DNA of 64,000 nt from Bugula neritina (lineage: Eukaryota; Animalia; Bryozoa), in contig OZ037768.1 in NCBI GenBank assembly GCA_964035545.1, positions 5,922,741 to 5,986,740 of the forward strand, written 5' to 3'. The notes beneath the pieces are model-generated. The model saw only the letters and a program-made list of their open reading frames with translations. It searched no databases and had not been told where the DNA came from. How positions within the stretch are numbered: position 1 is the stretch's first letter; each line of letters begins with the position of its first letter. A program made the translations under genes and the position numbers. Of this stretch, positions 1-37,175 are shown piece after piece.

Positions 1-204
1 ACCAGACAGTTCACTCAACACAGTACCACATGATGTCACTATACCAGACAGTTCACTCAACACAGTACCACATGATGTCACTATACCAGACAGTTCACTC
101 AACACAGTACATGATGTCACTGTAACAGACAGTTCACTCAACACAGTGCATGACGTCACTGTACCAGACAGTTCACTCAACTCAGTGCATGACGCCACTG
201 TGCC
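1..204 (+). repeat. Exonic 42/39-bp tandem repeat encoding PDSSLNTV(P)HDVT(I/V)
   Basis: About 5 copies of ccagacagttcactcaacacagt(acc)acatgatgtcact; the frame is open and continuous with the PMS2 exon. Confidence 0.85.
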
Positions 205-3431: not shown

Positions 3432-4023
3432 CCGAGTAAATAAAAAATGCTTATCATGCTTATGTTGAAGGGTTATTTAATTTAAATCTTTTAAACTAAT
3501 TTAGGCAGTTTTTCAATATTATATATGCTGACATAGCCAGAGTTTTAAAAACTTTAATTTTATAATTCATTTTTGTAAATATTGTATTCTTGTAACATAA
3601 ATTGTATCTTTTTGTACATATAGTCTTATAATATATACATGTATACACTTGTTTAAATAACTTTCTCTTACAGGCCATTGCGTAATATTATGAAAAAACT
3701 AAGGTTATATATTGATAACCTAAAATATGACCTTCTAAGGTACTTGTGATGCAGGAGTTTTATGGCCATGCAGTTAACAAAAACAGAGATTATCAACAGC
3801 AATTAGTTACATAAGTGAGATGATTAACATACGTGGCTAGCAACAAGTGAATTACTGGTCCTTACGATTAGAAAGATACAGTCACTGCATTTATTCTTAT
3901 CTGCTGCATGAATTTGAATTATAAAATATTACTATCAATAAATATACAAACATTGGCAAACATGATTTAACAGACTCACTGCTTCGGGAGTTGTAGTTGA
4001 AGACTGACAATAAAATGTAAGGC

Positions 4024-5643
4024 ATGGGAGATGGCTGCGAATGTTGTGGAAGGAATGAAGACCGAACCACACAATACAACATCTCATCGCTGTCTAATTT
4101 TACAGGGACAACTGTGGATATTTGGAACAGCACCACTACTCCAGGCTTATTGTCTAATATAACGGCATTCACCAACACAACCAGTTTGGCTAATTCTACC
4201 ATTCCATTCAATCATACTCTATACGATAATATCACCACAACATTCGCAAGCAATGTAGTTGCCAATTCAACATTGGCCGGCAGTACACCAAGTATCAACT
4301 GTTCATTTAATTCTACTACCGAAGGATTTATATCTACGACAGCATTGGAATACGGCAGCCTTAATAGCACAAGTTCTGATGACAATCTTATTGGTCTAAT
4401 TATTGGACTTACTTTGCAGCTGCTCTCTTTTTTTCCATGTTTATTTGGCAACTTGTCTGTCTTCATAGCTTTTGTCAAATATAACAAACTTCGAACAAAA
4501 ACGAATTTTTACATAGTAAATTTAACCGTGGCAGATTTTCTTGTAGGAATATTGGTCATACCATTCGACTCTACAGAAAAAATATATGAAATCACTAGAC
4601 TCAACTCAGTGGTAAACGAAAGTTTACCAAGAGATCCCATTTTTTGTACAATTCACCGATTTATATTAACATTTTTAATGGGCTATTCGTTAGTAGCCTT
4701 GCTCATGATCTCAATAGATAGATACATTGCAGTAGCGCGGCCATTTTATTATGTTGAGAAGGTGACTTCAAAAGGCATCTTGATCACCATAGGAATCAGT
4801 TGGTTGCTGATGTTTGCACTATGTGCGCCAATACTTGACCGACTGGGAGATATTGGTGAACCATTCTACAGAGTATGCGGTTTCCCATGCTGGAACTCAC
4901 TAAAAAGTCAAGGAAAAGCATACGTCATTATACTGTATATACTGCTGGTCATCATTTACTTTAGTAACATTGTCTGCTATGCATGGGTAGCCGCTATAGC
5001 TGTAAAACAGCATCTTAAATTGAAAGACCTTACTCAAAGAAATGTTATATACAGTAAAGGGTACATCAGAAACACAAAAATAATGACTAGTATGTTTGGA
5101 ATATTCATACTATTTTGGCTGCCCTACATGCTCATCTTGACACTGCATGTTGTAGGAACATGTTCAAAAAACACCTGCATTATCCCTCGTGATATTGCTT
5201 TATCTCTCGGTGTAGTTAACTCCAGTATTAACTGCTACATATACGCCTGGAGAAAGCGAGACATTAAAGAAGTGCTATCAATGATGCTATGTTCACGTAA
5301 AAGAGTTCGTGTGGTGCCACAGGATTCCGCACAAGCTATGAGAAGAGCCAACAGAAACAACTCATCCGAATCTGCCTACAATTTTACTGCCAGACTATCA
5401 CATAGACCGACAGAGCTGTCCTTAATGGCATCGTGTCACAGCAGTGTTGTTGGATTGGACAATCTTGAAATGTCCTGCACAGTTGATATGAGCTGCTACA
5501 ATGCTGAAAACTCTAACAACATAGAATCAAGAAATAAGGATATGTGTGAATGCGAACAACAACCATCAACAGCTACCATTGAGCCTAACGATGTATCATC
5601 AGGTACAGGTGACCATCCAATTTCAATCATTAGACTAAATTGA
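4024..5643 (+). CDS. Intronless rhodopsin-like (class A) GPCR, orphan / amine-adenosine receptor-like
   Basis: 539-aa ORF with 7 hydrophobic segments: GN (TM1), NLTVADFLVG (TM2), SIDRY (TM3), W (TM4), FWLPY (TM6), NSSINCYIY (TM7). N-terminus is Thr/Ser/Asn-rich. Confidence 0.93.
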   Translation: MGDGCECCGRNEDRTTQYNISSLSNFTGTTVDIWNSTTTPGLLSNITAFTNTTSLANSTIPFNHTLYDNITTTFASNVVANSTLAGSTPSINCSFNSTTEGFISTTALEYGSLNSTSSDDNLIGLIIGLTLQLLSFFPCLFGNLSVFIAFVKYNKLRTKTNFYIVNLTVADFLVGILVIPFDSTEKIYEITRLNSVVNESLPRDPIFCTIHRFILTFLMGYSLVALLMISIDRYIAVARPFYYVEKVTSKGILITIGISWLLMFALCAPILDRLGDIGEPFYRVCGFPCWNSLKSQGKAYVIILYILLVIIYFSNIVCYAWVAAIAVKQHLKLKDLTQRNVIYSKGYIRNTKIMTSMFGIFILFWLPYMLILTLHVVGTCSKNTCIIPRDIALSLGVVNSSINCYIYAWRKRDIKEVLSMMLCSRKRVRVVPQDSAQAMRRANRNNSSESAYNFTARLSHRPTELSLMASCHSSVVGLDNLEMSCTVDMSCYNAENSNNIESRNKDMCECEQQPSTATIEPNDVSSGTGDHPISIIRLN

Positions 5644-12892: not shown

Positions 12893-15800
12893 TTATGAGG
12901 TGCTGAAACGGATCATGGTACAGAAAAGGCACATTTCAGTAGATAGTTTGCTAAGATATTCAGATAATTCACGCCGTGTAGCAAGTCACAGAGATGTGTT
13001 GGCTGCTATCAAAAACTCAGGAGACAGAAGCCTCCTTAAACAATGGAAACAACCAGTTTTTCCACGGCAAGTTGCGTGATAAGACTTTTGTACTAAATAT
13101 TTATATACTGATTGAATAAATCAAACTTGTATTAAATTTGTATTTTCCTAAAATCATTATAATATAATTATTTAATGTGATGTATCAGAAATTGTTCAAA
13201 TTACAATTTACTATTTCTTATTTTTTTCTCTAACTATGGATGTGAATCTGAAATCACGTTGTGTTCTTGCAGATACCATCACATAGTGGACACTCATCCC
13301 ATATTCAACAGCATGGAGCAGACAGTTATTACAAGATTAGAGTCACTGTCAACTAGTGAAACACTAATTCCACTGAGCCACTCAATTAAAACAGGAAAAA
13401 ATAAGCATAATAATCAATATTGTTATAGTTTTCCGATTTAGGGTTGATGTGCCACCAAGAGAGTCTATTTAACACTAGAGAAACTTCACCAGTTAAGTCG
13501 AGTAGATATCGTTATATTTAATACAAGAATACATAATAAAAATCCAACGTACAACAGTAATGATACGCACGTCTATTTAGTTTACAGCACTATCCTCAAC
13601 TGAGCTAGTAGCGCGAAGCGGCTACTATTACTTATAAAACAGCCTAGCTAATTGGCTAATACATTGTTCCGGGTCAATACGCAACCTTGCGTATTGTGTT
13701 GCTGGTAGCTCCACGAGCCACCACACTGCCCCCTCCAGCAGAAAGCCCACTTTCTGATAAAATAAAATTCACATAAAAAACGTATACTTCGTTGTGGGGG
13801 GGTAAGAGAACAGTATAAAAGTATATACAAAAAAACAACAACTGATAAAAAATATACAGGTATATATAACGTGCACACTAAGTAATAAACAAGAGAAGGT
13901 CCTATCTACATGTAGAGTACGTGCCACCATTACGGTAGGGAATGCCACAGAGAGGTAGGTGAATGGGTAGTAGGGAGTGGTAGGTAGACTCGAGTTAACT
14001 GCGGGCCGCACGCTTTATGCGTTTAATAGACTCCTGTAAGTATTTGAGTTCACTGGAGGCTGCCTGTATCCGTGGGGCCAGCCTGTACACTTCTTGCTCC
14101 AAGTCATGCGCCCTAGCTTCTACCTCACGTAGGTTACGGGCCCAGGGGGACGAGCGAGAGGAAGTTGGTTGCCTGTGTCGTTTCCGCTCTGAGGATGGAA
14201 GAGGAGGAGGTAGTGTATATGCATTTGTGTCTACTCTCTGTAGTACGACACGAGGAAAGGTATGCGGCATGCGTATAGGACTGTGAGGTGGAGAGTTAGC
14301 AGACTGTGTAGGTTTATCTGTGGCTCCAGAGATGATAGGTCGCGGGGAAGGGAAGCCTTGCTCCAGGCGAGATAGCCGAGCTGAGTCAGTGATGAGTGGT
14401 TTGATGGCGTTGAGAAAGGCAGGATATGATGATTCGTCTACTTCATAGACATGTCCTTGATAGCACTGCATAGTACGTTGGTGCCGCAGTAGGTAATCAC
14501 GGTTATAGCTATATTCTCCGCAAGGGCAGAAAGTGGTGATGTAGTGCTGCGGCAAGTGCACCTTTAGTCTGCGGTGGGTTGTGAATCGCTGCTGGCAGAG
14601 GTTGCATTCACGATTACTCTCACCTCCTTGATGGGTCCTGATTTCCCTCTCTGTGGCAGGGGTAATCCAGTTGGAGGTTGCTTCCAACTGGGGTGGTAGT
14701 TGCCTGGTGGTAGGAGTTGTTGGGGCCGGCTCTGGGTCCCATGCCATCTCTAGAGAAGGCATGTCCGTAGAGACGGGTGCGAGTGTGTCTACAAAAGTAG
14801 AATTATTGTTAGATCGCGGTGGATCTTTACAACATAATTCTAGTGACTGTCGACCGTTGCTAGCCTGAGAGTCACTGCTTTTGGAATGCACTCGAGGAAC
14901 TGATGAATCATGTGTGGACTGACCAAGAACAGTGTCTAGCTCCAGGTCTAACAGACCGTCGGCCATTACAGTGTCTTCATCGTCATTCACATGAAACGTG
15001 GTTCCCAGTAATTCTGATTCAATCTGCTGAATTAGCTCAGAATTTACTGGCATCGAGCCCGTTTCCATGAATAGGAATACAAGACTTATACTGGCTTACC
15101 TGGGAACTCGGTATTAATGTCCATACTCAACGTTCTTGGTAAGGTTGGAGCTGGTTGTGGGATACGTCTGCCTTTGGCGATGTCAGCATAAGAAAAGGCT
15201 GAGCATCGTTTCTGAGGCACGAGGTCGGAACTATTTGCTTTACGCGCATTAATTCCTCCCACTATTCCGCCCTCGCAAAAGTTGATATTTGCGTGGGGTT
15301 CACAACTCCAACATTTTATCGTACGGTTTTCCCCTAGACTTTCATGTGCGCCGCTTCTAATGCAGTCACATATGAAGTCTTTCAAATACGGTGGGGGCTT
15401 CCTCGTACGCTGTCCCCTTTCTAGGGGGGGTGACACGCTTGCCGGTTCGTTAGTAGGGGCCTCTAATGGCGTCTCTACTTCACCGTTAGTGGTCACCTCT
15501 TCTTGTTCTCCGGATGGAGCCCCTCCCTCCGTGGGGGTTTGCACTTCCGGAACCGGCTCGGTTTCTGGAAGTGATGGAATTAGACTTGGCGGTGGCGGGC
15601 ATGCTTCTGTTGACAAAAGCTGCCGCTCCTCTCTCACCAAGTTTTCCTCCCGCGGTATGACCACTTCGTATTCAGGTCCATGCCGCCGTCGCCCGCGCGT
15701 CGTTGTCTGCCTCCTGGGCTCTAACAACGGGGGGGCTTCTCCCACTCCGTCAGGGCTAGCCCAATACGGTTTCAAGCAAGACTCATTCTGGATAGACACC

Positions 15801-18800
15801 TGTCCTGAGCGCTCAATCTTGTACGTATGATTGGGCATAGCCTCGACGACCACGTAGGGGCCTACGAACTTAGGCTTCAGCTTATCAGCCTGTCCGCGGC
15901 GCCTACGGTAATTGACCATCCACACCTTATCTCCTCTTTGATAGAGGGGTGGTTCATCGGAATCTTCGTGCCGCACCTTCCACTGCTGTTGACGCAGTAT
16001 CTCGTGTGCGGCCTTCATCCGTTCCACTAGTTCGCTGGCATACTCATGGACTGAGTTATCCTGCTCTGGAACGTGATAGGTGAGATGGTCAGGGACACGA
16101 GTCTCTCTCCCGAGCATCAAGAGGTTTGGGGTCTCACCAGTACTGGTGTGTGGGGTGCTACGGTATGCACGCATGACTTGCGGCAACACCGTATCCCATT
16201 CCTCTTGACCTCGTCCAAGGAGGAGACTCCGGAGCGCATCACCTAGCATCCGGTTGTTGCGCTCCACCACCCCGTTACCTTGAGGGTGGTAGGGGGTGGT
16301 CCTGCTCTGATTTACTCCCCAGAGGTGGCAAAGGTCGCTCATCAGTTGAGACTGGAATTGAGCGCCTTGATCAGAGTGTATCTGTTCGGGAAGCCCAAAA
16401 TAACAGAATACATGTTGGTCTAGTGCCCTGGCCACTGTTGGGGCTGATGCATCTGGGATAGCCAGAGCATCCGCCCACCTAGTAAAGTGGTCGGTTAGTA
16501 CTAGGATCCAATTATTGCCTCTGGGGGTCAGGGGCATGGGTCCGACCAGGTCTACAGCGACCACTTGCCAGGGCCTACCAGCATATAGCCTCCGCCGTCC
16601 TGCTTCACCAGGGGGGCGGCTATGCTTACTGGCCTGGCAGATCTCACACTGTTTGACTCTGAGCCGGACGTCACGCTCCATCTGCGGCCAATACCACCGG
16701 AGTCGTAATTTGGATATCACTCGCTTGACCCCTGCGTGGGCCTGCTTGTGAGTATCCCAAATCAACTCACGGCGGATGGCTGCGGGGCAGACTACCCTCT
16801 TCCTTTCCGGGTGTCTGCCGCTGGCAGCTAGAGAGATGGTTAGCAACCCATCCTGCCCGATCCGCAGCGAGTCCCAACGCTGACAGTATAGCCGGAACTC
16901 GGCGCATCCCTGTCGTATGCGTTCCTCGCTGGGTCGTCGCCCTTCCCTTTTGGCCCGGTAGATGTCTGCCACGACTCCCGGCAGCTCTTCTTGGAGCTTC
17001 TTCAGCTCTCGAACATTACCGGCCAGTACAGGGTTGGCGCGGAGGTTTTGTACATCCTCCGGGGACTCATCAACTCTTTGCCTGAGTTGACCTTGATCCC
17101 AGTCAAACGGTGCTCCGTGATGAGCCAGCGTCTCCAACTCGCATCGTGGGGGACCTCCATCCCTCTTCTCGATGTTGAGACACTGTTTGCAACCTCCGTC
17201 AGGTCGGCGACTCAACCCATCTGCATTGCTGTGTCTCTTGCCCGGTCGGTGTTCGATCCGGTATGAGAATTCAGCTAGGATTTCGAGCCACCGGGCGACC
17301 TGACTGGAGGGCTCTGCTCTCCTGCACAACCAGATCAGCGAGGCATGATCCGTACGCAGCCGGAACTTCCTGCCATATAGGTATGGTCTGAAGTGCTTCA
17401 CTGACTTGATTACTGCCAGCAGCTCCTTGCGGGTAGTGCAGTAATTTCGTTCAGCGGGAGAGAGAGACTTGCTGTAGTAGGCTACTACTACTTCTCGGCC
17501 TTCCTGCACTTGCGACAGCACAGCGCCAACATTCTGGTCACTGGCGTCTGTGTCTAGGATGTACTCCAGAGTGGGGTCTGGGTAGGCCAAGATGGGCGCC
17601 GTTAGGAGGCAGCCCTTGAGGCGGTCGAACGCTTCTTGTTCGACTGGAGTCCACTGCCACGTCACTCCCTTTGCGGTAAGCCGGTTTAACGGCTGGGCTA
17701 TGCCCGCAAAGTCTGGTATGTATTGCCTGTAATACCCTACCAGCCCCAAGAAAGCCCGGAGTCCGGTCAAGTCTTGGGGGGTGACCCAGTCTTCTACTGC
17801 CCGTACCTTTTCGGGATCCGTTGCCACGCCGTTTCGACCGACAACGTGCCCCAGGTACTTGACCTTCGGCTGCAATAGAGCGCACTTGGAAGGTTTGAGC
17901 TTAAGACCGGCACCTCGGAGTCTCTCGAAAACCTCCTGCAGACGACTGACATGTGTCTCGAAGTCTGGAGAGATTACGATGACATCATCGAGGTAGACCA
18001 GCAGTGTCTTCCAATGGAGTCCGCTAAGGACTTGTTCCATCAGCCTCTGGAAGGTGGCTGGGGCGGAGGTTAACCCGAAGGGCAACACCTTCCACTTCCA
18101 CAAACCGTCCCGTGTGATAAACGCCGCTTTCTCCTGGGCGTCGGGACTCAGAGGAACCTGCCAATAGCCGCTTAGCAAGTCTAACGTACTGAAGTACTTG
18201 CTGCCGGCTAGGGCGTCCAATGACTCGTCAATACGAGGTAGAGGGTAGGCGTCCTGTATGGTTACGCTATTGAGTTTGCGGTAGTCCACACAGAACCGCC
18301 AACTGCCGTCTTTCTTCCGGACCAGTACGACTGGCGAGCTCCACGCACTATGGGCGGGCTCTATCAGTCCCCGGTCCAGAAGATCCCGTACTTGTCGGCT
18401 AACCTCCTTCTCTTTCTCCGGCCCCAGCCTGCGCGTGGGCTGCCGGACAGGGGCTGTCCCTGCAGTCAGCGGTATTTCGTGTCTGACAATTCCAGTCAGT
18501 CCCACGTCATTCTCCCCGCTGCTGAACACATCACCGTAGTCGCGTAGTAACTTGGCCATAGCTTGGCGTTCCCTGTTACTCGCGCAGCCGCCACTGGCTG
18601 TTTCGTATAACTCCCGGAGATGTGTCGGAACTGCCCCTCGTCCCTGAATAGGGTGTCGAGGGGGTGCCTCCGTCGCGTCACCCAGCGACGGGCCCACGTC
18701 CTCTTCCTGGACGGAATGGAACCGGCCCAGCATTGACCCAGCTGGGAGCTCAATGGGCTCGGTAAAGGGGTTGACGCACTGCACTAAGACCTCCCCTCGC

Positions 18801-21800
18801 TCAGTTAGTCGGTTTAAACTACTGGCGAGTTGGATCTTTTCGTGCGCGCTTTCAACGACCCCGAGCCTGGCTATCCGGTTGCTGTTCACTCGGCAGTGGA
18901 TAGTAGCTCTGGAGCGTCCGGGTACGGTGCAGTTCCGAACTACCTGAACACCGCCCACCAGAGGACGCCCAAACTTATCCACACAGGCGAGTTCTCGCCC
19001 GCCCATCAGCACCACCGACTTACTAAAATCTATTCGGCACTGGTGTTGCTTCAAGAAGGGCATGCCGAGGATAGCATCTTCCTCCAGTTGACCTATGATA
19101 AAGGTCTCCTGTACAGCCTGATCTCGGACACGCCCAGGGAGCTCGATAATACCATAAAAGGGGATACATGACCCGTCTGCCAGGGTGCCATGTTCTCCAG
19201 TATACGGTCGTACTCTATCCTTGTCCCGGCGGGGCAGTGCCTCAAAGACTCTACGGCTGAGAAGGTTGGTAGTACAACCGGAGTCGAGCAGGAAAGTGAC
19301 GGCGTTGCCGGCCACCTTTCCGGGTAGGAAATAGCTCTCTCCATGTGGTTGTACTTTCACCCCCCCCCGCATGTGCTGTCCTGGTTTGACAGGACGGCGG
19401 GGGTTTCACCCGTGGTTTACGGGGCTTCCGGCGGCGAGGTTGGTGCCGGCGGGGTTTGGGCCTCTCCACTGGGCCTTCTGGCTCCATTTCAGTGGCGGGC
19501 TCCTCCTCCCGAGGTAACCGGTGAAACCGGTTAGCGAGTGGCAGGGAAAAGGTACTGGGCCGTTGTGCGGGCCTACTAGTCCTGCGTGGTACCTGCCACT
19601 CGGGTAGAATGTTCCGCCGTGTCCGTACGGACAGACGGCGGCGTGTTCCACCATACTCCTTTAGTTGCGGCCCGCGGGGAGGGAGAGTGTCCGCGGGCCG
19701 TGACAGTTTAACGCCCCCTCGTATTGGGGTCGTCCTTTCTGTCCCTGGTCCTGATCAGCGCTACTCCAGCCTTGCCCCACAGGTGTTGGGGGCATCCGCA
19801 AGGCCTGACCGGGGCCAGCACCGGCCAGAATGGTTACCAATTGTCCCAGCATCTCTACCATACGGTCCACTTCGGCTTCCAGCGGGAGGGCTTCGGAGCC
19901 TGTCGTAGCCCGAGCAGCGCTGACTCCAACTACTGGTGGGTTCCGCTGTGCTCGATGCATTTGGGTAGCCAACAGGTAAGCTTCTCCAGCCTTCAGGGCA
20001 TCCTCTATTCTAGTTATCCCTTTAGCTCGTAGGTGGTGGTCTAGGCCCAGGTCGTTTAGGGACTGGACAAAGGCGTCATAGGTGTAACGCTCTTGGTGTT
20101 GTGCTGGCAGATCGCTATATGCAATCTGCGCCAGCTTCTTCACCGTCGCGGCATGTTCTTGCAGCGAGGTCCGCGGGGTGCGGCACAATCTCTCCAGCTT
20201 GGTCCTAGCGTCTATGACGGAGGTGCCAAAACGGGCCCGCAGCGCAGCCAGTATGCCGTCTACGTCCGTTCCCACTCCGTACGGCTTGGCTTGCTCCGTC
20301 ACCGCCCTCCGCAATTTGATAAGGGCCACTCTATGCGGCCATTGAGCAACTTCCATTACCTCTCTAAATTCTTGTATAAATTGTTCGACATCTTCCGACC
20401 CAGTAAAGGTGGGAGCTTTCAAGCAATGTCTATAAGCTTCTTCTCCTTCACGATTCACAGGATTAACAGCATTTCTACGCTCACCTTCTACTGGGGGTGG
20501 TTGCATTCTAGCATTTTCAGTCTCCATCTTTGATATACACTATCCCACTGCTGCCACCACTGTTATAGTTTTCCGATTTAGGGTTGATGTGCCACCAAGA
20601 GAGTCTATTTAACACTAGAGAAACTTCACCAGTTAAGTCGAGTAGATATCGTTATATTTAATACAAGAATACATAATAAAAATCCAATGTACAACAGTAA
20701 TGATACGCACGTCTATTTAGTTTACAGCACTATCCTCAACTGAGCTAGTAGCGCGAAGCGGCTACTATTACTTATAAAACAGCCTAGCTAATTGGCTAAT
20801 ACATTGTTCCGGGTCAATACGCAACCTTGCGTATTGTGTTGCTGGTAGCTCCACGAGCCACCACAATATGACAAATACAAGACTAATTTAAATGTTCAAT
20901 GTCCTAATGCAAACCATTCTACCGAGAGTAATGAGTTTTGTACTGAGAGCACAATTAGAGACACTAATAACAAATCATTGAACAGTCATTATAAATGCAT
21001 TTCAGGAAATATCATTAGCCATGGTCAAAAGCAAAGTAATACGGCTAATAACAATAGTGAAAAAACCTTTACAGACAGGCCACATCAATCGATATCAGCT
21101 CTAAGTGTTTCGAATCCGTACAACCATTTCATAGGCTCCTCTTATTCTAAAATGGCTTACCTCAGAAGTTCTTCTAACCAAATATTAAACTGTAGGACTA
21201 TTGACGATGGCTATCTACAAGGCTTGTACCAACCACTCACCAGATGCAATCAGAAAAGTGAAGACTGTGAATCGTCTGCCAATAGTTCAAAAGAAAGACC
21301 GCTGGAGATTATTAAAAAGAGAGCTAAAAATACAGGAATCTTTGGTTACGAGGGAACTCATAGTCTTGTAAAGGGATTCGACACATTAGACACTTTCAAC
21401 ACCCATTTAAACCCTTCTCAATCAAGACCAAAATCTTTAAGGGGAAGAAACTTTTATAAATGTGAAATATCGCCAAAAGTTAATTTGCAGGTAAATATTT
21501 AATTATAATAACTTAGTTTAACTTCATAAATAAATATATAATAGATAAAAAAACATAGCCCATGACATAAACTATGAATATGGCGCTTGATTATTATTAA
21601 TTATTCTTTTTTTGTACAAAAATAATGGAGTGCAAGAACTTTTAAAAAGACCTAAATATATAACATAATAATGTTATTGTCTTTTGCTATAGTACCTTTC
21701 ACTTTTATGTATTGAATTTATAAAGGTTTCGAACGAATCTAAAAGTTTTCGTAAGAGAAATGCGGTGCTTCGAAGAAAAATGGAGAACTTTCACCTTCAC

Positions 21801-21947
21801 TTACACGAGGAGGAAGTGATGTCATGTATTAGTGGTAGTGACTCACTCAGCTTAACCGATGACTCATCAGACTGCGCCTCTATCTCACAGGGCAATAGAT
21901 CAGGCAATGTACGGTGTGTTGAGGAAGTTAATGAGGACAGACTCTAG
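12893..21947 (+). CDS. Unrecognised spliced host gene disrupted by the Gypsy insertion (exons approx. 12893-13066, 13273-13420 + 20870-21490, 21726-21947; 5' end unresolved)
   Basis: Removing the element and one TSD copy rejoins ..KNKHNNQY|DKYKTNLNVQCPN..KSLNSHYKCISGN.. into one stop-free exon of about 770 nt, bounded by AG (13272) and GT (21491). Flanking exons are phase-compatible. Confidence 0.65.
13421..13725 (-). repeat. 3' LTR
   Basis: Identical to 20561-20865 except one C/T difference (13548 vs 20688). Confidence 0.97.
13726..13736 (-). promoter_or_regulatory. Polypurine tract (GGAGGGGGCAG)
   Basis: Purine-rich run directly abutting the 3' LTR on the element strand. Confidence 0.85.
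13995..15068 (-). CDS. Retrotransposon ORF3: zinc-finger / coiled-coil protein (357 aa)
   Basis: Starts 17 nt after the pol stop. Contains CNLC-x12-H-x3-H, then CPC-x12-H-x5-C; an acidic N-terminus; RKRHR; a C-terminal heptad helix. No signal peptide or TM segment visible. Confidence 0.85.
   Translation of the reverse strand: METGSMPVNSELIQQIESELLGTTFHVNDDEDTVMADGLLDLELDTVLGQSTHDSSVPRVHSKSSDSQASNGRQSLELCCKDPPRSNNNSTFVDTLAPVSTDMPSLEMAWDPEPAPTTPTTRQLPPQLEATSNWITPATEREIRTHQGGESNRECNLCQQRFTTHRRLKVHLPQHYITTFCPCGEYSYNRDYLLRHQRTMQCYQGHVYEVDESSYPAFLNAIKPLITDSARLSRLEQGFPSPRPIISGATDKPTQSANSPPHSPIRMPHTFPRVVLQRVDTNAYTLPPPLPSSERKRHRQPTSSRSSPWARNLREVEARAHDLEQEVYRLAPRIQAASSELKYLQESIKRIKRAARS
15086..19372 (-). 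CDS. pol: Pol polyprotein (protease, RT, RNase H, integrase)
   Basis: LLDSGC (protease); RFCVDYRKLN, LPFGL and YLDD (RT); DTDASD..ELLA..TDH..NADGLSR (RNase H); H-H-C-C, D,D(35)E core (VDL, HSDQG, VERNNR) and GPY module (integrase). Confidence 0.96.
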   Translation of the reverse strand: MRGGVKVQPHGESYFLPGKVAGNAVTFLLDSGCTTNLLSRRVFEALPRRDKDRVRPYTGEHGTLADGSCIPFYGIIELPGRVRDQAVQETFIIGQLEEDAILGMPFLKQHQCRIDFSKSVVLMGGRELACVDKFGRPLVGGVQVVRNCTVPGRSRATIHCRVNSNRIARLGVVESAHEKIQLASSLNRLTERGEVLVQCVNPFTEPIELPAGSMLGRFHSVQEEDVGPSLGDATEAPPRHPIQGRGAVPTHLRELYETASGGCASNRERQAMAKLLRDYGDVFSSGENDVGLTGIVRHEIPLTAGTAPVRQPTRRLGPEKEKEVSRQVRDLLDRGLIEPAHSAWSSPVVLVRKKDGSWRFCVDYRKLNSVTIQDAYPLPRIDESLDALAGSKYFSTLDLLSGYWQVPLSPDAQEKAAFITRDGLWKWKVLPFGLTSAPATFQRLMEQVLSGLHWKTLLVYLDDVIVISPDFETHVSRLQEVFERLRGAGLKLKPSKCALLQPKVKYLGHVVGRNGVATDPEKVRAVEDWVTPQDLTGLRAFLGLVGYYRQYIPDFAGIAQPLNRLTAKGVTWQWTPVEQEAFDRLKGCLLTAPILAYPDPTLEYILDTDASDQNVGAVLSQVQEGREVVVAYYSKSLSPAERNYCTTRKELLAVIKSVKHFRPYLYGRKFRLRTDHASLIWLCRRAEPSSQVARWLEILAEFSYRIEHRPGKRHSNADGLSRRPDGGCKQCLNIEKRDGGPPRCELETLAHHGAPFDWDQGQLRQRVDESPEDVQNLRANPVLAGNVRELKKLQEELPGVVADIYRAKREGRRPSEERIRQGCAEFRLYCQRWDSLRIGQDGLLTISLAASGRHPERKRVVCPAAIRRELIWDTHKQAHAGVKRVISKLRLRWYWPQMERDVRLRVKQCEICQASKHSRPPGEAGRRRLYAGRPWQVVAVDLVGPMPLTPRGNNWILVLTDHFTRWADALAIPDASAPTVARALDQHVFCYFGLPEQIHSDQGAQFQSQLMSDLCHLWGVNQSRTTPYHPQGNGVVERNNRMLGDALRSLLLGRGQEEWDTVLPQVMRAYRSTPHTSTGETPNLLMLGRETRVPDHLTYHVPEQDNSVHEYASELVERMKAAHEILRQQQWKVRHEDSDEPPLYQRGDKVWMVNYRRRRGQADKLKPKFVGPYVVVEAMPNHTYKIERSGQVSIQNESCLKPYWASPDGVGEAPPLLEPRRQTTTRGRRRHGPEYEVVIPREENLVREERQLLSTEACPPPPSLIPSLPETEPVPEVQTPTEGGAPSGEQEEVTTNGEVETPLEAPTNEPASVSPPLERGQRTRKPPPYLKDFICDCIRSGAHESLGENRTIKCWSCEPHANINFCEGGIVGGINARKANSSDLVPQKRCSAFSYADIAKGRRIPQPAPTLPRTLSMDINTEFPGKPV
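19661..20527 (-). CDS. gag: Gag-like protein (288 aa)
   Basis: First ORF after the PBS; KAPTFTGSEDVEQFIQEF..W..L..ALRARFG capsid-like pattern of Gypsy Gag. Confidence 0.85.
   Translation of the reverse strand: METENARMQPPPVEGERRNAVNPVNREGEEAYRHCLKAPTFTGSEDVEQFIQEFREVMEVAQWPHRVALIKLRRAVTEQAKPYGVGTDVDGILAALRARFGTSVIDARTKLERLCRTPRTSLQEHAATVKKLAQIAYSDLPAQHQERYTYDAFVQSLNDLGLDHHLRAKGITRIEDALKAGEAYLLATQMHRAQRNPPVVGVSAARATTGSEALPLEAEVDRMVEMLGQLVTILAGAGPGQALRMPPTPVGQGWSSADQDQGQKGRPQYEGALNCHGPRTLSLPAGRN
19668..19712 (-). promoter_or_regulatory. Putative -1 programmed ribosomal frameshift signal
   Basis: G_TTA_AAC in the gag frame (19712-19706), a 5-nt spacer, then a perfect 10-bp stem CGGCCCGCGG/CCGCGGGCCG with a 13-nt loop. 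The -1 frame is open downstream. Confidence 0.75.
20542..20559 (-). promoter_or_regulatory. Primer-binding site, tRNA-Leu type
   Basis: TGGTGGCAGCAGTGGGAT, 1 nt after the 5' LTR, complementary to a eukaryotic tRNA-Leu-like 3' end (ATCCCACYGCTGCCACCA). Confidence 0.85.
20561..20865 (-). repeat. 5' LTR
   Basis: TG..CA ends; CCAAT and TATAA-like motifs on the element strand. Confidence 0.97.
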
Positions 21948-21961
21948 GTAACCTTCCAAGG

Positions 21962-22123
21962 TAGATGCAGTAATGGAGAAATTGAGAAAAGCCTGTGTTC
22001 TAGATTGAAAATGTATCAAAAAAAGTTATGCTCTTGCAAAAATTTCTTCCCGCGCTCCAAACCAAAATTTAATAATAAGATTAAAGATCTTAGGCTATTT
22101 CAATTTCTCTACTACTGATCCTA
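21962..22123. mobile_element. MITE family B copy
   Basis: Terminal inverted repeats TAGATGCAGTAATGGAGAAATTGA / TCAATTTCTCTACTACTGATCCTA; aligns with the reverse complement of 42776-42910. Confidence 0.75.
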
Positions 22124-23566
22124 AATGAACCTTTCTAGGAGTCCACTGCAATATGGCTCTCATTTTTCACTTTTAAATGATTACAGCTGACTGCACAGGT
22201 AGTTGGTAGAGCTACATGTATGCAATCTTCATAAGAGTTGCAAGTGTTACAGCCTACAGAACTCTACCATCTATATTACAATATATATGAAAATGTTCTC
22301 AATTTTTGATGGGTTTTTGCTATAAAAATACCTGTGAAATCTTTATTTTTTTATGTAGCAGAAAACAAATAGTTATATACAACATTTTCTATAGCATACT
22401 TGTTATAACTGATATTAAACTGCACGGATGATTAATTTTTAATTTGATCAATTTAGGTTATAATGCACTAATGAATAATACTTCATGATTAGTCCGTAGG
22501 TGTATTCATAATAAATCATGCTACTAGCTAATTATTAGAACAAGATAATTTAATCTTTTATTGACTTTCTCTACAACATTTACTGTAGCTTCTCATAATA
22601 CAACTGCACATAATACTAAGTATATAGATTTACTGGGTGTACAATTTTATTCAATTACCAAGCTTAAAGTTTTTTGCTTCTTGAGTTACAGTAATGGAAT
22701 ACCTTCATATAAACACGAATGCATGCTATCTCAGTAACACAGAATGAACCAAGTATATAGTATTTGTGTATAGAACTGCCTATTGCATATATAGTATAAT
22801 ACTAGTTAGCTAATAATAATGTAGAGTATAATATATAAATTTATATTTAAATATTTAATGTGCGTTATAATTCATTTGCAATAAAGAAAATAACTTTTTT
22901 AGTTGGGATACACATTAAATTTAACTCAGCATTATTGTAGTTTTTGTGTTGAAAAAAATTTGATAGCCTATACTCTATAGCATGAAATATATTTTAACTA
23001 TATTACAACTTGATATACCAGTAGAATGCATTTCTTTACTTTGCCAAATATATTTTATGAATGTGGGTTATAAAGCGCATTTATTAAAGGCAAATGTTAC
23101 TATATTCCTACTGGGGAATAGGTTATCTCACAGCTAATAACTTCATTATTTATTGATATTTGTATTAATTTCTGCTTACCTTTAATAGATTTTCACTTAA
23201 GATTCAAATTACTTAACAAACATAGCAACAGCCTTGAGGCATATTTCTATAAGTACTCAATATAAATAACAACTTGTAAGAGTTTTAAACATTCACTTAT
23301 ATACAACTAAAATAATGGTTGCAACCGTCAACTTTATTTATTTAACTAACATAAAATTATTGTAGCTCTGTTTAAATAAAACTGGAACAAAAATGAAATA
23401 TTAGTTGAGAATTACATTACATACTCTGAATAAAAGTTTAAACATGAATAGCATACTTTAAAAAATATAAATAATAAATAACAAAAGCTATTTCCACAAA
23501 AGGTGTATGCAAACATAGTTTTCCCATTATGACTTCCAGAAGCGTGTTATAAGTCAATAAACTAGC

Positions 23567-26500
23567 TCATTGAACTTCATATACAAATGGTATTTCCTTA
23601 CTTAGAGGCCATTCCGCTAAAACCTTATCAAACATTTCATTTTCAGCTACTGTTAAATGATTCTTCCAATCTCCTATTTTACCTGCAAGACAATAGTAAT
23701 CAAAATAAACTTGGCAGATTTATTGCATAATAATATAAATGCCGGCCTTTTTTAAACTATATTTTGCAATCTTTAGGCAATTTGATTATTTTATTCTTGC
23801 TATTATATCAACTGTGACAATGACTTTGTGTATTGGCAAACTTCCTCTAACTTAAAAACATTGCTTAATGTATAATCACTTAATTTATTGAACAACTTAT
23901 TTTTTCAAATATTTGTCTTTCGTTTATGTCCACATGCATCTAAAAATAATCCAATGCTATCACAAAATCAGAATCAAAGTTGGCTGGAATTTTTGTAAAC
24001 AAATTACTCTACTTTGTTACCCAATAATTGAATTTAAATTTTTTTCTGTCTATAACCAAAAAGACTAAGCCTTTTTCACCAAAATCCAAATTAAGTTTTG
24101 CATGAAAATTAAATGTGGACCACATTCCAATATGGCGCTTTTGGATTTCCTACACATAGGGGATCCGAAAGCACCCTAAATCAATGATAAAAAATAAAGT
24201 AAAAGCCCAAGTTTTATGCTTGCTAGCATTATAATTTACAGCAGCTATTTTAAATGTTCAGTCCTATTACATAACTAATTAAGTAGTATATACTTTATAA
24301 TTTAAAAATATTAAATTAAAACATTTGTAAGGGAGGGGGTTCCACAATTCGTAACTTCTATACATTAAAATCAGAAAAGATAAAAACTTTAAACTTGACT
24401 AATGTTAAATATTTTGTTCATGATTAAATGAAAAAATCATGTTTTTGCTATAAAAATTATATTTTAAGCTTATTTTTTGTATGTTACTTCATTCTATTGT
24501 CTTTTGAACTAAGAAAGACAATTAAAAAAGTTCCTTTCTTGAGTTTTTAGTGGAGAGCAATGCATTACAATAGATCAACTATTGTGAAGCTATTTCAAAG
24601 GAAAATCCTTATTAACAGTTGCATTGCATCGTAATATTTCATAGCTTCAAGAGGAAGCAACTCCAAATAAACTTTCTTTCATTTGCATAGATTGCAAAGT
24701 TCTCAGTGTGTTGTATTTTAGCCATACTGCTGTTTGATTAAAAATATTTTACACTTTAATCAAATATATTTTTAGTTTTTTTAAATATAAAGAATGCTAT
24801 TTGAAATGTACTTGCCTAATTCAGTTTTTATTGTTTTAATGTTAATAATATAATCTTAAATTGAGTTATACATCAACCCATGTGTACATTTAATTTGGCA
24901 TATAAGTTTTCTACAGAAACATTACCTGCAGTTTTTATAATATAACATTATGGGCTATGCGTATATAGTTGTAGCCTGTATGGTTTATGTATCAATTTTA
25001 CAAGTTTCTCTTGTTTCCACAATAGTACATTGAGGGTTGTTGAAAGATGGCCGAAAATAGTGCAAAAAATTGCTGGTCTGTAGTCAAAATTGGAACAACT
25101 GAATATATAACTTAATATAAATTCTCACAGTAAAGCAACACAATAGATCATTTGACCAATTCCTGTCACATGTCTAAATTCCCTGCTTCCAATCTATGAT
25201 TCATGAAGATTTGAAGTGAATCTAATTGTCTATCACCGAACTCTTTAATCACAAACTGTTGAACAATAATGATTTAATACAAGTGTTACTTGTATTGTAT
25301 TGCAGAAAGTGGCTAGTTTCGTGTGACCAAGGAAATGCTTTGTTAATCCAAACTTACAATAGCCGTTTGAGTTTATATTTGATATTAATGATTTTTTAAA
25401 CTTTCTCACCTTTTCTATACATCTGGTCTCTGCGGTCTATAATATGCTGAAGCTACAACACGCAGAGTATAGTTAATCAGGAAATAGATTTTACATGCAT
25501 GACCGCATGAATAATGATAATACTACTGTTGCATCCCAATAATATTAATAATATTCTCTGCTATAAAGCTGTTTTCTATGATATAAAACATGTATTCAGC
25601 ACAATACTCTCAGATTAGGCTGCTATATATGGAAATTATTGCATGCCTATAGTGACTATACAACAGTTTTATATTACTAGTAATCATATAGCAATTTTTT
25701 AGTGTTAAAAGCATGCAGGTGTTGCAATCTGTATCATCCACCATTAATATACAAGTGAAGAGGTTATTGACATTAGAATGTAGATGTAATTTAAGTCAAT
25801 AGCAACTACCTATAATGTATTATTTGGTCTATTGTTTATTCTTTTTTCTATTATTTTTTTTCAAGTAGTTTTGGTTTATAAAATTGAAAAGCTGGTTTTT
25901 ACAAATTCATAAACAACCATTTCTGTCTTATACTCTACTCTCATTTATATTTAGTTTTGTTGTTCATTTTAAAATCACAAACTCTACTTCTATAAGTTTA
26001 ATTTCGACCATCTTAGCTCTTTCACCATCCCGAAGAAAATAGTTGTAGTACCTTTTCCTGAACTGCTACATTGTCGGAGGCACTGCTTGTGGTTCCTTTA
26101 GAGGTTTTCATATTTTGAAACTTTATGGCATCGGATATTTGTTGAATCAGATCTGCATTTCTCTGGGTTCCCATAAACTCATTCAATTTTTCAATATTTT
26201 GGACTGGGTTCTGTAGATGAATTAAAAAATATATTATAAACATGCTGTTGTTCTCTCAACACAATTACAAACTAGACTTTTTTAAATAACACAGTCTATT
26301 ATATAACTTTATTTTTGAAATAATATAATTAAAGCAAAAAACAATCTCATTTTTGGGTAACTTTGAAAGGATCAATGTTGCCTCATGCGAGCCAACTAGT
26401 TTTAATCAATAACATCAATCAATATAATATAGATGCAAGATGTTTATTGCCAAGGTTGGTGCAAGAGTTTACCATGATCATATCTTCAAAGTACATGATA

Positions 26501-27629
26501 AGTGTGTTGGGGTCATCTCTTAGTGACCACATGTATTCAGTGTAGTCAAAGTAACTGCCATACGGTACATCCTTACTAAACAAATACATCTTCAGGTATT
26601 CAGAGAAAGATAGTTGTCCCATCTCCTCCAGACCAGGCAAGTCACCAAGCTAAAAATCACCAAATATACCTTAAATTGGTAATTCCTAGAAGAATCATCT
26701 AAAACTAATACATAGTGGCTGCACTAACCATATAAGTAATAAAAAAGTAAATAACTAATAAATAATAAAAAAATAATAATTAAACAATAAATAACTAGTA
26801 AATAAATAGTTCTACTCACCATTTTACACTCATGATAGTACATAGAAACTGCAGAGTCTTTAGGATTTCTTATCACTAAAAGTAAACATGACAAGCTGGT
26901 AATTTTTGCACATTGTGTTCAGATGTTGACTTATTTGGATTACTTTAACAAAATATAGTCAACTGTATATATTTTACCAACAACAGTTTTTTTCCCTCTA
27001 AAGTCTTTTGGTAGGACATCAAGACGGTAATGAGTGTTTAGAACTCGAGGGGATGGGAATATTTCTACAGCTTTAGAAGGAGGAAACAAATCTATCATAC
27101 AGGCCTCTTTCATGTCATTTATGTACTCAGCAGAACCATTAAGTAACATCATCATTATCTCCCACGCTAAATGTGTACCTAGAAAGTCAACAATTAAGCT
27201 ATATATGATTATAATGAACTTAAAAAGTATCATATGAAAATGCATTGACCAAATTTGCAAAATGCACTTAATGTGTGAAAGATAACAATATTTAGCCCAA
27301 AACAAAACAATTATTTGTGTGCATATTAATGCTGTGTGGTTTAGAAGTTCAGTTGGACGTTTTTAAATGTCTTTTGTTTCATTGTTAAAAATGTGTAATA
27401 AAGTGTAAATAAAGCATATGGTTTATTCTTGTTTCAAGTGTTTACCATTTTTTGGATATGTAGCCAGAAGGAAATCTCCATCATTCCATCTATATTCTTC
27501 TATGTCTTGTCTTAACAGCTTATAGTCAGGCAATGTTGTTCCAATAGCTGCAACTTTTACTGCTCCATCTTCAGAAGAAAAGTATTGGTTTGTTACAGCA
27601 CCTCTCATTGGATGTTGAAAGACATTCAT
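23567..27629 (-). CDS. Cytosolic sulfotransferase (SULT1-like), copy 1, 7 coding exons
   Basis: TYPKNGTH (5'-PSB), SPRVLNTH, RNPKDSAVS (3'-PB), PYGSYFDY, YRKGKIGDWKNHLTVAENE. Confidence 0.9.
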
Positions 27630-30600
27630 TGTAGGTTCGGCTAAAACAAACAGAAAACATGTTCAATATTAGGCTTTAGCAAGTGAGGACTGAAAAGGGC
27701 TGAAAGTTATCGCAATGTTTATATAATAATCAATTCACTGAGCGCAGAAAATAAAATATCTGTTTGCCTAAACAGCCAATAAAAAACAACTTAGCAAAAA
27801 ATACTTTGTTATAACTTAGCATAGCACTGTTGCCTGATTATAAGTTATATTCAAACTTTTCCCTCCCAAAAAAAGCTGTAGTAAATAAAAACTTACTTGT
27901 ATGCAGCAAAATATTTATCACTTTGCATAGATAAATTGACTTTTGAGGTCAGCTATTGGTGCGTTTATGTTTTATTACCTGCAAATCAAGAGGCTCTCCC
28001 GATTTTAAAAATAATCGGAATCTGTACTAGCAATCCAGACTTAAATGATATAAGGAATTGATGTATTGATGTGAAGCCTGTTAAGCAAGTAACTCAGATA
28101 CTTTGTTATTTCACAGGTAGCCTAAAGAGGATGCAGCCCTATAGTACCAGCTGTAAAAGTTGCTGAGATATAGACACAAAACTACGGTTGCAATAGGAAG
28201 GAAGAAAGGGTGGTAATTTGCTGCCTCTCTTCATTAAAACAATAGTTACACTAAGAACCTCACCGGTGGGTCAATAATTAGCACCAGAATTACTGAAGTT
28301 ACTGCATGATTTATTTGCTAGGCATAGGCATCATTTATTGAGGTTTGTTTACGCTAATTGAAACTGAATACTACTAATGTTAAAACTTTTTATCGGAGTT
28401 ATTCCAGCCACCTCGTTAAATGTTGATTTTAGGCCATGCGCATTGGGCGTGGTGCAATGTTGGTTACTTCATCACTGCAACGTCATGCTAGAATACTTGA
28501 CCTATAAATCTATTTATAGTTGCTGCCATGATGACATTGTGTTGTATAGTGTCAAATTTATGACGTTGGCTGCGAAGTAGTGCAGCTATGTGACACGTAT
28601 AACACAGATACAGGAAGTTCATTTGCTGCATCTACACATACAGCACTTTAGTAGTGGGTAACCAACATTAAAAACCCTCATTTAATGAACTTGAGGGTTT
28701 CGACAATCATGAAAAGCTGCTGACTATTACTAAATATTTTAAACAAACTATGTTGGTAAATGCCGCAATCGTATTAATCGCGTATTATATATACAGTAGT
28801 TGCTCAGTCGAAGCTACTAAATAAATACACGTGGCAGACATGCACCGCTCACCAAAACCATCAACAAAAGCCCGTGTACTACATGTATAATATTGCTTGA
28901 AAAGCTAAAAAAGGAACAAGATTTGAACTTTTATTAGACATATGTTTTTTCCCTAAATTACTGTAAAAACTAGTGTTTTGCACTCAATTAAAAAAAATTT
29001 GATTACCCACCAGTTTAAACTTGATCAGGTAAAATTTCAAGTCATTCTATAATTATAGACTATAATTTCTAAAAACTTTTGTTGGGAAACCAGAAATCAA
29101 TGGCCCAACATAGAATTAAGCCAACCATTACATAATTTACTTATTATAATCTTTGATCTAAATTCTAAGAGATCCTCCTGAATTATAAGTACTTTTACTT
29201 GCCTCTAATTTTTTGTTTATTTAAACAAGAAACCAAAAAAAGTTATATAAAAAATTGCAATAGATAATGAATAGAACAGTTTACTTTTTTGTAGTTATAT
29301 AAGCCTGTGTACGACTTTTTAAAATAACTAGCAGCTTTATTATAACATATAAGATACTAAGAAAGCAGTAGGTTACAGACTAAAATATCTTAAATAGCTA
29401 TACGTTAGAATAACTAAATAATCCTTGCTACTAGATGTTAAGTAGCGAAAAAAACTGGAATAAGTAGTATAAGTATAGGGCTGGGCTACAAAATAATTTA
29501 TAAACTAGGCAGCTTGCAATTTATAGTTTAAACCATGCCAAGTTTGTTGAAATCGAAGTATAGGCCTATATGAAAAGTTGCATAAAGAAAGAATATTTAG
29601 CTTCAGTAGATAGCAGTACTTTATAAAACGCTCTTTTGAAAGATCTATAAGCAAGTTATTTGCTGTTCCAATATATTTTTAATTTGAGTAACAGTTTTAT
29701 TTGAATATTACATTGTTCTAACAAATATATTTTATAGCATATCTTCCAATCTACAAGCTGCTTCTAAACTCCAAAGTTCGTTTAGTTCTATTTATGTATG
29801 TGATAAATTGCACTTACCAAATGCAGTACGTATAAAGCTTTTAGATAATATTTTATTTCACTATTCACCAGCTGCTCACCAACACTGGTCAACAACAAGC
29901 CTAAAAGTGCTATCAACACTATCTACTTGATATTGTATCCAACTTTTAATACACTGGGTTCAAAAACGAGAGTGTAACCTATATTTCAACACAATACAGC
30001 ATGTCATTAAATAAGGGCAATGAGCCGTATCTGAATAGGAATTTTGAGATATAACTGGTCATGATAACACTTAAAAGTCTTCCCTGCAAAATGCATTTCT
30101 GGAAGTTAGAAATACAAAGATCCAAGGCTATCTCTAAAGCATATCACAAGCTTACCACTTGGCAGCACACCATTTGTAGCAAAGTAGTAGCAAAGTAGAA
30201 ATACGTATATAACTGTAAATTGTCCAAATTCCAGGAATCGGTCAGCTTTTTAACCTTTCATAGAATACTGAACTAATGACCTTGTTTACTGTAGTGACAA
30301 TCAAAGTAAGCAATTATCAAGTATGCAGAGTGAAGAGATGAGGATAGATATAATGCTAGTATACAGACATCTCTAAATGTACTATTAAGACTGAGTTACT
30401 AACAAATAGCTTGAAGTTGAAGAGATTTTATTGAATAAAATTAGAAACTGGTAACTAACTGCTATCAGTGGCAAACTTCTCTTGTAACTATAGAGCTAAT
30501 CTGAAAAGCAATGATAATATTTCCTCCATTAAAGCCTATAATTGAATCTTATTAGATAGTTGGTTTGTAAACTGCACAAAATATTTGGCTGTACTGTGGT

Positions 30601-37102: not shown

Positions 37103-37175
37103 GCCCCTGTAGTGTAATTAGTTAGCGCGCCTGCCTGCAAGCCAGAAGTTTGTCGTTCGAATCCCGGTGGGGGCA
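37103..37175 (+). pseudogene. tRNA-like sequence (pseudo-tRNA or SINE head; nominal anticodon GCA)
   Basis: 73 nt with A-box TAGTGTAATTAG, B-box GTTCGAATCC and acceptor stem GCCCCTG/TGGGGGC. Anticodon and T stems are mispaired. Confidence 0.55.

What the first reader, a model, noticed from the sequence alone, without database searches (positions are those of the whole stretch)
13995..15068. Gypsy retrotransposon encodes a transcription-factor-like zinc-finger ORF3 where env would be
Seen: an intact 357-aa sense ORF lies between pol and the PPT of an element whose LTRs differ at only 1 of 305 bases, so it was part of the recently mobilised unit. Its architecture is an acidic/hydrophobic N-terminus (ELIQQIESELL..DDEDTVMADGLLDLELDTVL), a Pro/Ser/Thr linker, a C2H2 finger (CNLCQQRFTTHRRLKVHLPQH), a second atypical finger (CPCGEYSYNRDYLLRHQRTMQC), a basic RKRHR patch, and a C-terminal heptad helix (LREVEARAHDLEQEVYRL..LKYLQESIKRI). 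No signal peptide or TM segment is visible, so it is not Env. Known: in errantivirus-type Gypsy elements this slot holds env. Inference: an element-encoded nuclear regulator, such as an LTR transactivator, anti-silencing factor or integration-targeting factor, analogous to complex-retrovirus accessory genes. I cannot tell whether it has already been catalogued.
Basis: partly seen in the sequence, partly recalled or inferred. Interest (0 to 1): 0.85.

Follow-up and report, generated by a model that had tools for sequence, protein, structure and literature searches.

The report
Retrotransposon's own double zinc-finger regulator
A young jumping gene, likely of a moss animal (bryozoan), carries in place of an envelope gene a conserved third gene for a protein with an uncatalogued two-zinc-finger domain, which likely binds DNA and would let the element control its own activity the way complex retroviruses do.

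Summary
Confirmed. An intact 357-codon sense ORF (15068-13995, minus strand) starts 18 nt after the pol stop of a Ty3/Gypsy element (LTRs 304/305 identical, ATAT target duplication). It is not a one-off: 59 homologues at 34-73% identity and 215 hits among 50%-identity clusters. Listed differences are mostly synonymous (16 of 30). The conserved core (residues 124-245) folds confidently (pLDDT 95) as two C2H2-like fingers in a scaffold that no Pfam family or solved structure covers. The finger pair overlays weakly on DNA-bound tandem fingers. An acidic head and a C-terminal coiled coil recur in distant members. It is not Env. Bryozoan host gene models carry the same domain; the direction of exchange is unresolved. 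Best reading: an element-encoded DNA-binding regulator of its own LTR (about 0.45); rivals are RNA-export factor, integration tether and decoy. DNA binding, expression and activation are untested. Non-env ORF3s are known (CERV, rotifer ORF3s); ten literature searches found none of this type, but Repbase/Dfam could not be searched. The scan noted other zinc-finger ORF3s elsewhere, none alike in sequence.

The parts
20561..20865 (-). 5' LTR, 305 bp, TG...CA
   Evidence: 1 mismatch to the 3' LTR
20815..20836 (-). perfect palindrome (10-bp arms, 2-bp spacer) at LTR positions 30-51; candidate site for a dimeric DNA-binding protein; also at 13675-13696 in the 3' LTR
   Evidence: arm of 9 or more with spacer up to 10 in 2.4% of 1000 shuffles; noticed after the fact; may instead be an RNA hairpin
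20542..20559 (-). primer-binding site, 1 nt after the 5' LTR (tRNA-Leu-like; that identity is recalled, not tested)
19661..20527 (-). gag-position ORF, 288 aa; no Pfam or PDB match
   Evidence: called gag by position only
15086..19405 (-). pol, 1439 codons open: protease, RT, RNase H, integrase with SH3-like module and a Pro-rich tail
   Evidence: best PDB match Ty3-G Gag-Pol, E 1e-127
13995..15068 (-). ORF3, 357 aa: acidic head (1-50), low-complexity linker, folded double-finger domain, linker with RKRHR patch, C-terminal heptad helix
14334..14699 (-). conserved core domain, residues 124-245
   Evidence: AlphaFold2 pLDDT 95.2, pTM 0.86
14544..14606 (-). finger 1, C155-x2-C158-x12-H171-x3-H175 (canonical C2H2 spacing)
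14463..14528 (-). finger 2, C181-x-C183-x12-H196 with a variable fourth ligand (C202 here)
14001..14147 (-). C-terminal amphipathic helix, residues 308-356, predicted coiled coil
   Evidence: helix, pLDDT 85-95; 13 of 14 a/d positions hydrophobic
13726..13736 (-). polypurine tract before the 3' LTR
13421..13725 (-). 3' LTR; target-site duplication ATAT at 13417-13420 and 20866-20869

Best explanation
ORF3 is a conserved accessory gene that follows pol in many families of this Gypsy lineage, and its protein is likely a DNA-binding regulator that would act on the element's own LTR to raise or protect its transcription. Shown: the gene, its place, its conservation and its linkage to pol. Predicted: a compact domain holding two C2H2-like fingers, and a C-terminal coiled coil. 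Inferred: the protein is made from a separate (probably spliced) message, enters the nucleus through the basic patch, pairs through the coiled coil so that two short finger pairs read a palindromic site such as the one at LTR positions 30-51, and recruits host transcription or chromatin machinery through the acidic head.
For: Conservation: 59 homologues at 34-73% identity; 215 hits at E<=0.001 among 50%-cluster representatives; in 80 distant domains (<45% identity) the seven ligands C155, C158, H171, H175, C181, C183, H196 are 94-100% conserved. Linkage to pol: 9 of 65 ORF3-homologue contig lengths equal a pol-tail contig length, shifted control mean 1.08, maximum 5, 0 of 400; P0161 and P0220 are pol-tail/ORF3 chimeras and distant P0312 carries a pol-tail motif before the domain (score above all 200 shuffles); five listed contigs of diverged copies bridge the pol-ORF3 gap (X1 records 6, 7 and X4 records 15, 16; X6 record 25). 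Selection: 16 of 30 listed differences synonymous against 24-29% expected, p 0.006; no indel at 15% share or more in run X1 within ORF3. DNA-binding hints: the 13 best structural rows are all C2H2 finger-DNA complexes, best Kaiso 5vmu Z 3.4, rmsd 2.7 over 57 residues; helix residues are basic in distant members (K/R at 166: 80%, 167: 65%, 169: 70%, 190: 68%; D/E at 191: 77%). Architecture: C-terminal heptad helix in 24 of 39 distant proteins against 2.1 for shuffles, net-acidic head in 15 of 21, basic patch in 33 of 43 close ones. LTR palindrome, P about 0.02.
Against: No direct evidence of DNA binding, nuclear location, activation or an ORF3 mRNA: one RNA-library contig covers 14070-14343 at depth 2.55, but gag and pol are covered alike and contigs show neither strand nor splicing. 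Structural matches are weak (Z 3.4 at best, none at 5 or more; Foldseek E 0.34) and C2H2-DNA complexes dominate the finger structures in the library, so the ranking is biased. The linker is not TGEKP-like, finger 2 has C-x-C spacing and position +6 of finger 1 is hydrophobic in most members, all unlike classical DNA-reading arrays; C2H2 fingers also bind RNA and protein (established knowledge). Splice acceptors upstream of the ATG have weak pyrimidine tracts. The palindrome was noticed after the fact, its conservation in other families is untested, and it also folds as an RNA hairpin. Only 11 of 59 homologues cover 98% or more of the protein; the rest are cut or decayed. The synonymous count rests on 40 of 106 rows chosen by the tool.
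Confidence: 0.45

Rival explanations
1. ORF3 is a Rev/CERV-like factor: it binds the element's unspliced RNA through the finger domain, multimerises, and promotes nuclear export or stability.
For: Precedent in the same slot: CERV of C. elegans Cer1 is nuclear, has a predicted leucine zipper and a Cys loop, and is needed for genomic RNA export (PMC10309623, passages). Basic finger helices fit RNA too. The first 126 nt of the LTR fold somewhat better than shuffles (z -2.2).
Against: The finger pair overlays on DNA-bound tandem fingers at rmsd 2.4-2.9 over about 50 residues; the acidic head suits activation; host gene models with the same domain would have no element RNA to export.
Confidence: 0.2
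2. ORF3 is an integration-targeting tether: the fingers read host DNA or chromatin and the coiled coil or head binds integrase.
For: In P0312 and P0220 the domain lies in one frame with a pol-tail motif, and P0315 and P0323 look so by eye, as expected if some lineages carry it as an integrase extension like a chromodomain (chromovirus analogy recalled).
Against: The profile test did not confirm P0315 or P0323; short chimeras can be frameshifted dead copies; in this lineage the pol stop is kept (a listed variant at 15086 still reads as a stop); no insertion-site data.
Confidence: 0.15
3. ORF3 is a captured host regulator used as a decoy or dominant-negative against a host silencing or defence factor, acting mainly through protein contacts.
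For: Bryozoan gene models carry the domain: Watersipora subatra XP_067940964.1 (two copies) and XP_067944745.1, Bugula neritina KAF6040922.1; the last two share a separate N-terminal region, as orthologous host genes would.
Against: In the tree pol-linked members lie on both sides of the host models and the order is unresolved, so the host genes may be domesticated from elements; no partner is known.
Confidence: 0.14
4. ORF3 is a neutral passenger: a transduced fragment that has no role for the element.
For: Many database homologues are truncated; expression is not shown.
Against: Open frames at about 50% identity over the full length in 11 homologues, ligand conservation, synonymous excess, linkage in distant lineages.
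Confidence: 0.04

Closest known systems
CERV of C. elegans Cer1 (PMC10309623; passages read)
   Same: [quoted passage not shown]
   Different: CERV has H, M and G domains, a C4-type loop, forms rings, acts in RNA export and has no obvious homologues outside Caenorhabditis; ORF3 has a C2H2-like pair and an acidic head. No direct sequence comparison was made.
Non-env ORF3s of bdelloid rotifer LTR elements (PMC5408684; passages)
   Same: Family-specific third ORF after pol in a small aquatic invertebrate.
   Different: Those are GDSL esterases, DEDDy exonucleases, TM or coiled-coil proteins; the words 'zinc' and 'finger' do not occur in that text.
Plant additional ORFs between pol and 3' LTR, e.g. 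Grande gene23, Retand ORF4 (PMC7264820; passages)
   Same: Same slot; nuclear, Tat/Rev-like roles proposed but unproven.
   Different: Plant elements, often antisense; the word 'zinc' does not occur in that text.
env-carrying Ty3/gypsy errantiviruses, including bryozoan ones (PMC13524379; passages)
   Same: Third gene in animal Gypsy elements.
   Different: Membrane glycoproteins; bryozoan ones are gag-env-pol. ORF3 has no signal or TM segment; 'zinc finger' and 'C2H2' do not occur in that main text.
Tandem C2H2 DNA-binding fingers (Kaiso/ZBTB33, ZBTB38, SALL4, CTCF)
   Same: Finger 1 spacing and weak sequence match; pair geometry.
   Different: Only two fingers, second with C-x-C, no TGEKP linker, embedded in a helical/strand scaffold with conserved W134, V210, D211 that matched nothing.
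Transactivators of complex retroviruses (foamy Tas/Bel1, HTLV Tax, HIV Tat; recalled, Tat and Rev also)
   Same: Proposed function and 3' position.
   Different: No homology found (viral structure library: no match at E<=0.001); function here untested.

Membership tests
Ty3/Gypsy LTR retrotransposon (Metaviridae) | pol order PR-RT-RH-IN | tested here: met
   best PDB match Ty3-G
Ty3/Gypsy LTR retrotransposon (Metaviridae) | TG...CA LTRs, target duplication, PBS, PPT | tested here: met
Ty3/Gypsy LTR retrotransposon (Metaviridae) | recognisable gag capsid domain | tested here: inconclusive
   ORF in gag position has no Pfam or PDB match
Env / errantivirus | signal peptide and transmembrane anchor in ORF3 | tested here: not met
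   highest hydropathy window 0.56; 3 of 152 domain-bearing proteins exceed 1.6
Env / errantivirus | pol groups with errantivirus clade | not tested
   no named reference elements were available in the tools; Gypsy clade not determined
Classical C2H2 (Kruppel-type) zinc-finger array | C-x2/4-C-x12-H-x3/5-H motif | tested here: inconclusive
   met by finger 1; finger 2 is C-x-C with variable fourth ligand; Pfam zf-C2H2 15.6 bits, cut-off 25.2
Classical C2H2 (Kruppel-type) zinc-finger array | TGEKP-type linker | tested here: not met
   five mostly hydrophobic residues between H175 and C181
Classical C2H2 (Kruppel-type) zinc-finger array | zinc binding and sequence-specific DNA binding | not testable with these tools
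   only structural resemblance
bZIP transcription factor | helical basic region continuous with the zipper | tested here: not met
   only E 0.08-0.9 matches to C/EBP, Maf, GCN4; the basic patch is in a Pro/Ser stretch modelled as coil before helix 308-356
CERV-type export factor | M-domain ring with C4 loop; needed for RNA export | not tested
   no CERV sequence compared; architecture differs from the description in PMC10309623
Any Pfam family for the core domain | match above curated cut-off | tested here: not met
   of 94 alignment members 2 hit zf-C2H2_4 and 1 DUF7310 at E<=0.001, the window's core none
Retroviral-type LTR transactivator | activates transcription from the cognate LTR | not testable with these tools
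   needs a reporter assay

The most novel reading that the evidence does not exclude
An old lineage of invertebrate Gypsy elements is 'complex' in the retroviral sense: it encodes its own sequence-specific transcription factor, built on a new double-finger domain, that binds a palindrome in its LTR; and this domain has been exchanged with the host, founding or deriving from a bryozoan gene family that would now regulate genes through sites spread by the element's LTRs.
Probability: 0.25. Interest if true: 0.85.

Novelty: new variant of a known kind. Interest (0 to 1): 0.64.

Why it matters
LTR retrotransposons are usually taken to depend wholly on host transcription factors, and the one well-studied non-env third gene found here in the literature for an animal Gypsy element (CERV) acts on RNA. 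A conserved, element-encoded DNA-binding regulator would be a retrotransposon counterpart of Tas or Tax, testable with a simple reporter. The core is a well-defined, confidently folded domain family missing from Pfam, and its presence in bryozoan gene models makes a clean case for studying capture versus domestication of a regulator.

Tried and rejected
No whole genome is held for this window, so sister copies could not be read directly. DNA context searches failed: viral contigs gave no confirmed relative; metagenome and prokaryote scans gave 2 and 2 loci with only 17-54-residue matches, taken as chance finger matches and not used. A search for longer, fused forms (626-2000 aa) found none among 106 candidates, weak evidence. 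Cluster look-ups gave no accession for 22 of 30 queried proteins' genomic context and organism names only for three bryozoan clusters. Homodimer prediction for residues 121-357 gave no answer (score 0.03, mark 0.32). ESM Atlas gave only hypothetical or generic C2H2 clusters. Whole-protein structure searches were filled by generic fingers or long helices; no solved structure matched the scaffold around the fingers, which does not prove a new fold. The careful tree did not finish; the quick tree leaves 40 of 74 inner branches open. bZIP reading rejected. P0315 and P0323 as pol fusions: not confirmed by profile; P0309 hit the wide profile but not the narrow one. One 'stop' among the 30 variants comes from scoring singly two adjacent changes in one codon. 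Runs X3 and X4 had small shares and are not used for habitat. Rows dropped: 2 obvious multi-finger host proteins and other weak hits fell out at the domain filter (154 domains in 152 of 204 proteins kept); 77 of 154 domains went into the tree.

Full report
Observation. It belongs to a 7445-bp element bounded by 305-bp LTRs that differ at one base, with an ATAT target duplication, a primer site 1 nt after the 5' LTR and a purine tract before the 3' LTR. pol is open for 1439 codons with protease, RT, RNase H and integrase in Gypsy order and matches Ty3-G best among solved structures. ORF3 starts 18 nt after the pol stop in another frame; none of 2000 shuffles gave so long a frame, and no segment is hydrophobic enough for a signal or membrane anchor. 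The gag-position ORF and pol are separated by two in-frame stops in this copy, so recent insertion is shown, autonomy is not. The Gypsy clade was not determined.

A family, not an accident. A homologue search found 59 proteins at 34-73% identity, 11 of them covering 98% or more of the query; the unfiltered search of 50%-cluster representatives found 215 at E<=0.001, of which 150 were listed. A profile of residues 123-246 kept 154 domains in 152 of 204 proteins; in the 80 domains under 45% identity the ligands C155, C158, H171, H175, C181, C183 and H196 are 94-100% conserved, with W134, G184, V210 and D211 at 85-95%; the fourth ligand of finger 2 varies (C202 in 71%). Pfam does not know the domain: of 94 members, 2 hit zf-C2H2_4 and 1 DUF7310 at E<=0.001. 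Outside the core the layout recurs: a C-terminal heptad helix in 30 of 43 close and 24 of 39 distant proteins with long enough tails (shuffles 0.75 and 2.1) and a net-acidic head in 29 of 30 and 15 of 21 (my own simple heptad rule).

Linkage to pol. No DNA loci with context could be fetched, so three indirect tests were used. (1) A search with the pol tail listed the best 120 of 211 proteins of up to 790 aa; 9 of the 65 contig lengths of ORF3 homologues equal a length in that list, against a mean of 1.08 and a maximum of 5 in 400 shifted controls. Equal length is taken as the same contig; the other 56 are untested rather than unlinked, since the list was cut. (2) P0161 joins pol tail and ORF3 start; P0220 and the distant P0312 carry a pol-tail motif ahead of the domain, above all 200 shuffles; P0309, P0315 and P0323 did not pass this narrow test. 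(3) Among the listed pieces, five contigs with 8-31 differences bridge the pol-ORF3 gap in three runs. In run X1 all 30 bins of the element are covered and summed depth over ORF3 (20,000-38,000) is like that over gag (34,000-39,000), which fits ORF3 being a regular part of the family but is no copy number. Of 30 listed differences inside ORF3 (40 of 106 rows shown), 16 are synonymous against 24-29% expected (p 0.006), 7 of 9 in the core and C-terminal part; X1 shows no indel there at 15% share.

Structure. AlphaFold2 on the full protein gives order only at 8-21, 121-245 and 308-356. The core alone, with 94 sequences, reaches pLDDT 95.2 and pTM 0.86: two helices, the two fingers, then a strand and two helices. 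The finger pair (about residues 150-201) overlays on consecutive fingers of DNA-bound proteins; the top 13 rows are all such complexes, best Kaiso at Z 3.4, rmsd 2.7 over 57 residues. These scores are low and the library is rich in such complexes. The profile matches C2H2 proteins at E down to 2.5e-6, by finger 1 mainly. Helix positions are basic in most distant members, but the linker is not TGEKP-like and position +6 of finger 1 is hydrophobic. The C-terminus resembles bZIP only weakly and its basic patch is not helical in the model.

Host side. The only named homologues among 30 looked up are bryozoan gene models: Watersipora subatra XP_067940964.1/963.1 with two domains, XP_067944745.1, and Bugula neritina KAF6040922.1; the last two share a separate N-terminal region, as a conserved host gene would. 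In a quick tree of 77 of the 154 domains, pol-linked members fall in two distant parts with the host models between and most deep branches open: capture and domestication cannot be told apart.

Mechanism. The most likely reading (0.45) is a DNA-binding regulator of the element's own LTR: acidic head for activation, basic patch for import, finger domain for DNA, coiled coil for pairing. All functional steps are inferred. Expression is not shown: an RNA library has one contig on ORF3 but also covers gag and pol, without strand or splice information. Rivals are a CERV-like RNA-export factor (0.2), an integration tether (0.15), a decoy of a host paralogue (0.14) and a passenger (0.04).

What is known. 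Non-env ORFs in this slot are common and mostly unexplained; CERV is the worked-out animal case (PMC10309623, passages); rotifer ORF3s are enzymes or membrane proteins (PMC5408684, passages); plant additional ORFs have proposed nuclear roles (PMC7264820, passages); bryozoan errantiviruses carry a gB-type env before pol (PMC13524379, passages). Passages of PMC2774666, PMC8220671, PMC6431247, PMC6338049 and PMC13326412 gave no zinc-finger ORF3; the last notes that bryozoan repeat libraries are scarce. Ten searches (listings only, apart from the papers named) found no description of this gene; the two most direct (Gypsy + LTR retrotransposon + ORF3 + C2H2; bryozoan + genome + LTR retrotransposon + Gypsy) returned no paper. 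Supplements were not read, and Repbase, Dfam and GyDB could not be searched, so an unannotated entry may exist. Within this scan no look-alike by sequence was found; other zinc-finger third ORFs were noted in other genomes (unchecked).

Verdict. Observation confirmed; interpretation partly supported. A new variant of a known kind: a conserved non-env accessory gene built on an uncatalogued double-finger domain, shared with host gene models, function untested. Interest 0.64.

Noticed in passing
window 19251-19754 (-): gag and pol lie in one frame but are separated by two stops (19663-19661, 19408-19406); a 167-codon Arg/Pro-rich open frame in another frame overlaps both. Programmed recoding or damage was not determined.
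   Followed up: partly
window 20815-20836 and 20746-20767 (and 13675-13696, 13606-13627): Two inverted repeats in the LTR (10-bp arms with 2-bp spacer; 7-bp arms with 8-bp spacer); a third copy of the first half-site lies near LTR position 157.
   Followed up: partly
P0328/P0188, P0272, P0329: Bryozoan gene models (Watersipora subatra, Bugula neritina) with the same domain; P0188 and unnamed P0212 hold two copies; P0272 and P0329 share an extra N-terminal region.
   Followed up: partly
window 4021-5643 (+): Single open frame of 540 codons for a rhodopsin-family GPCR with a long Ser/Thr-rich N-terminus.
   Followed up: partly
window 54661-55848 (-): Reverse-transcriptase fragment, 395 codons (Pfam RVT_1); looks like a non-LTR element remnant (recalled).
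   Followed up: partly
window about 23500-42700: Three tandem paralogous segments with exon-sized similar blocks about 7-8 kb apart; probably the gene cluster of earlier finding e1-10590514.
   Followed up: no
window 1-204, 1500-1661, 43373-43554, 53868-54045, 54150-54389, 60909-61568, 62259-62369: Tandem repeat arrays with units of 39-42, 18, 13, 18, 16, 30 and 32 nt.
   Followed up: no
window 13421-20865: The element is GC-rich (52-59%) in a 27-35% GC background, and CpG observed/expected is 0.68-1.04 inside against 0.41 in the flanks, in keeping with a young insertion.
   Followed up: yes
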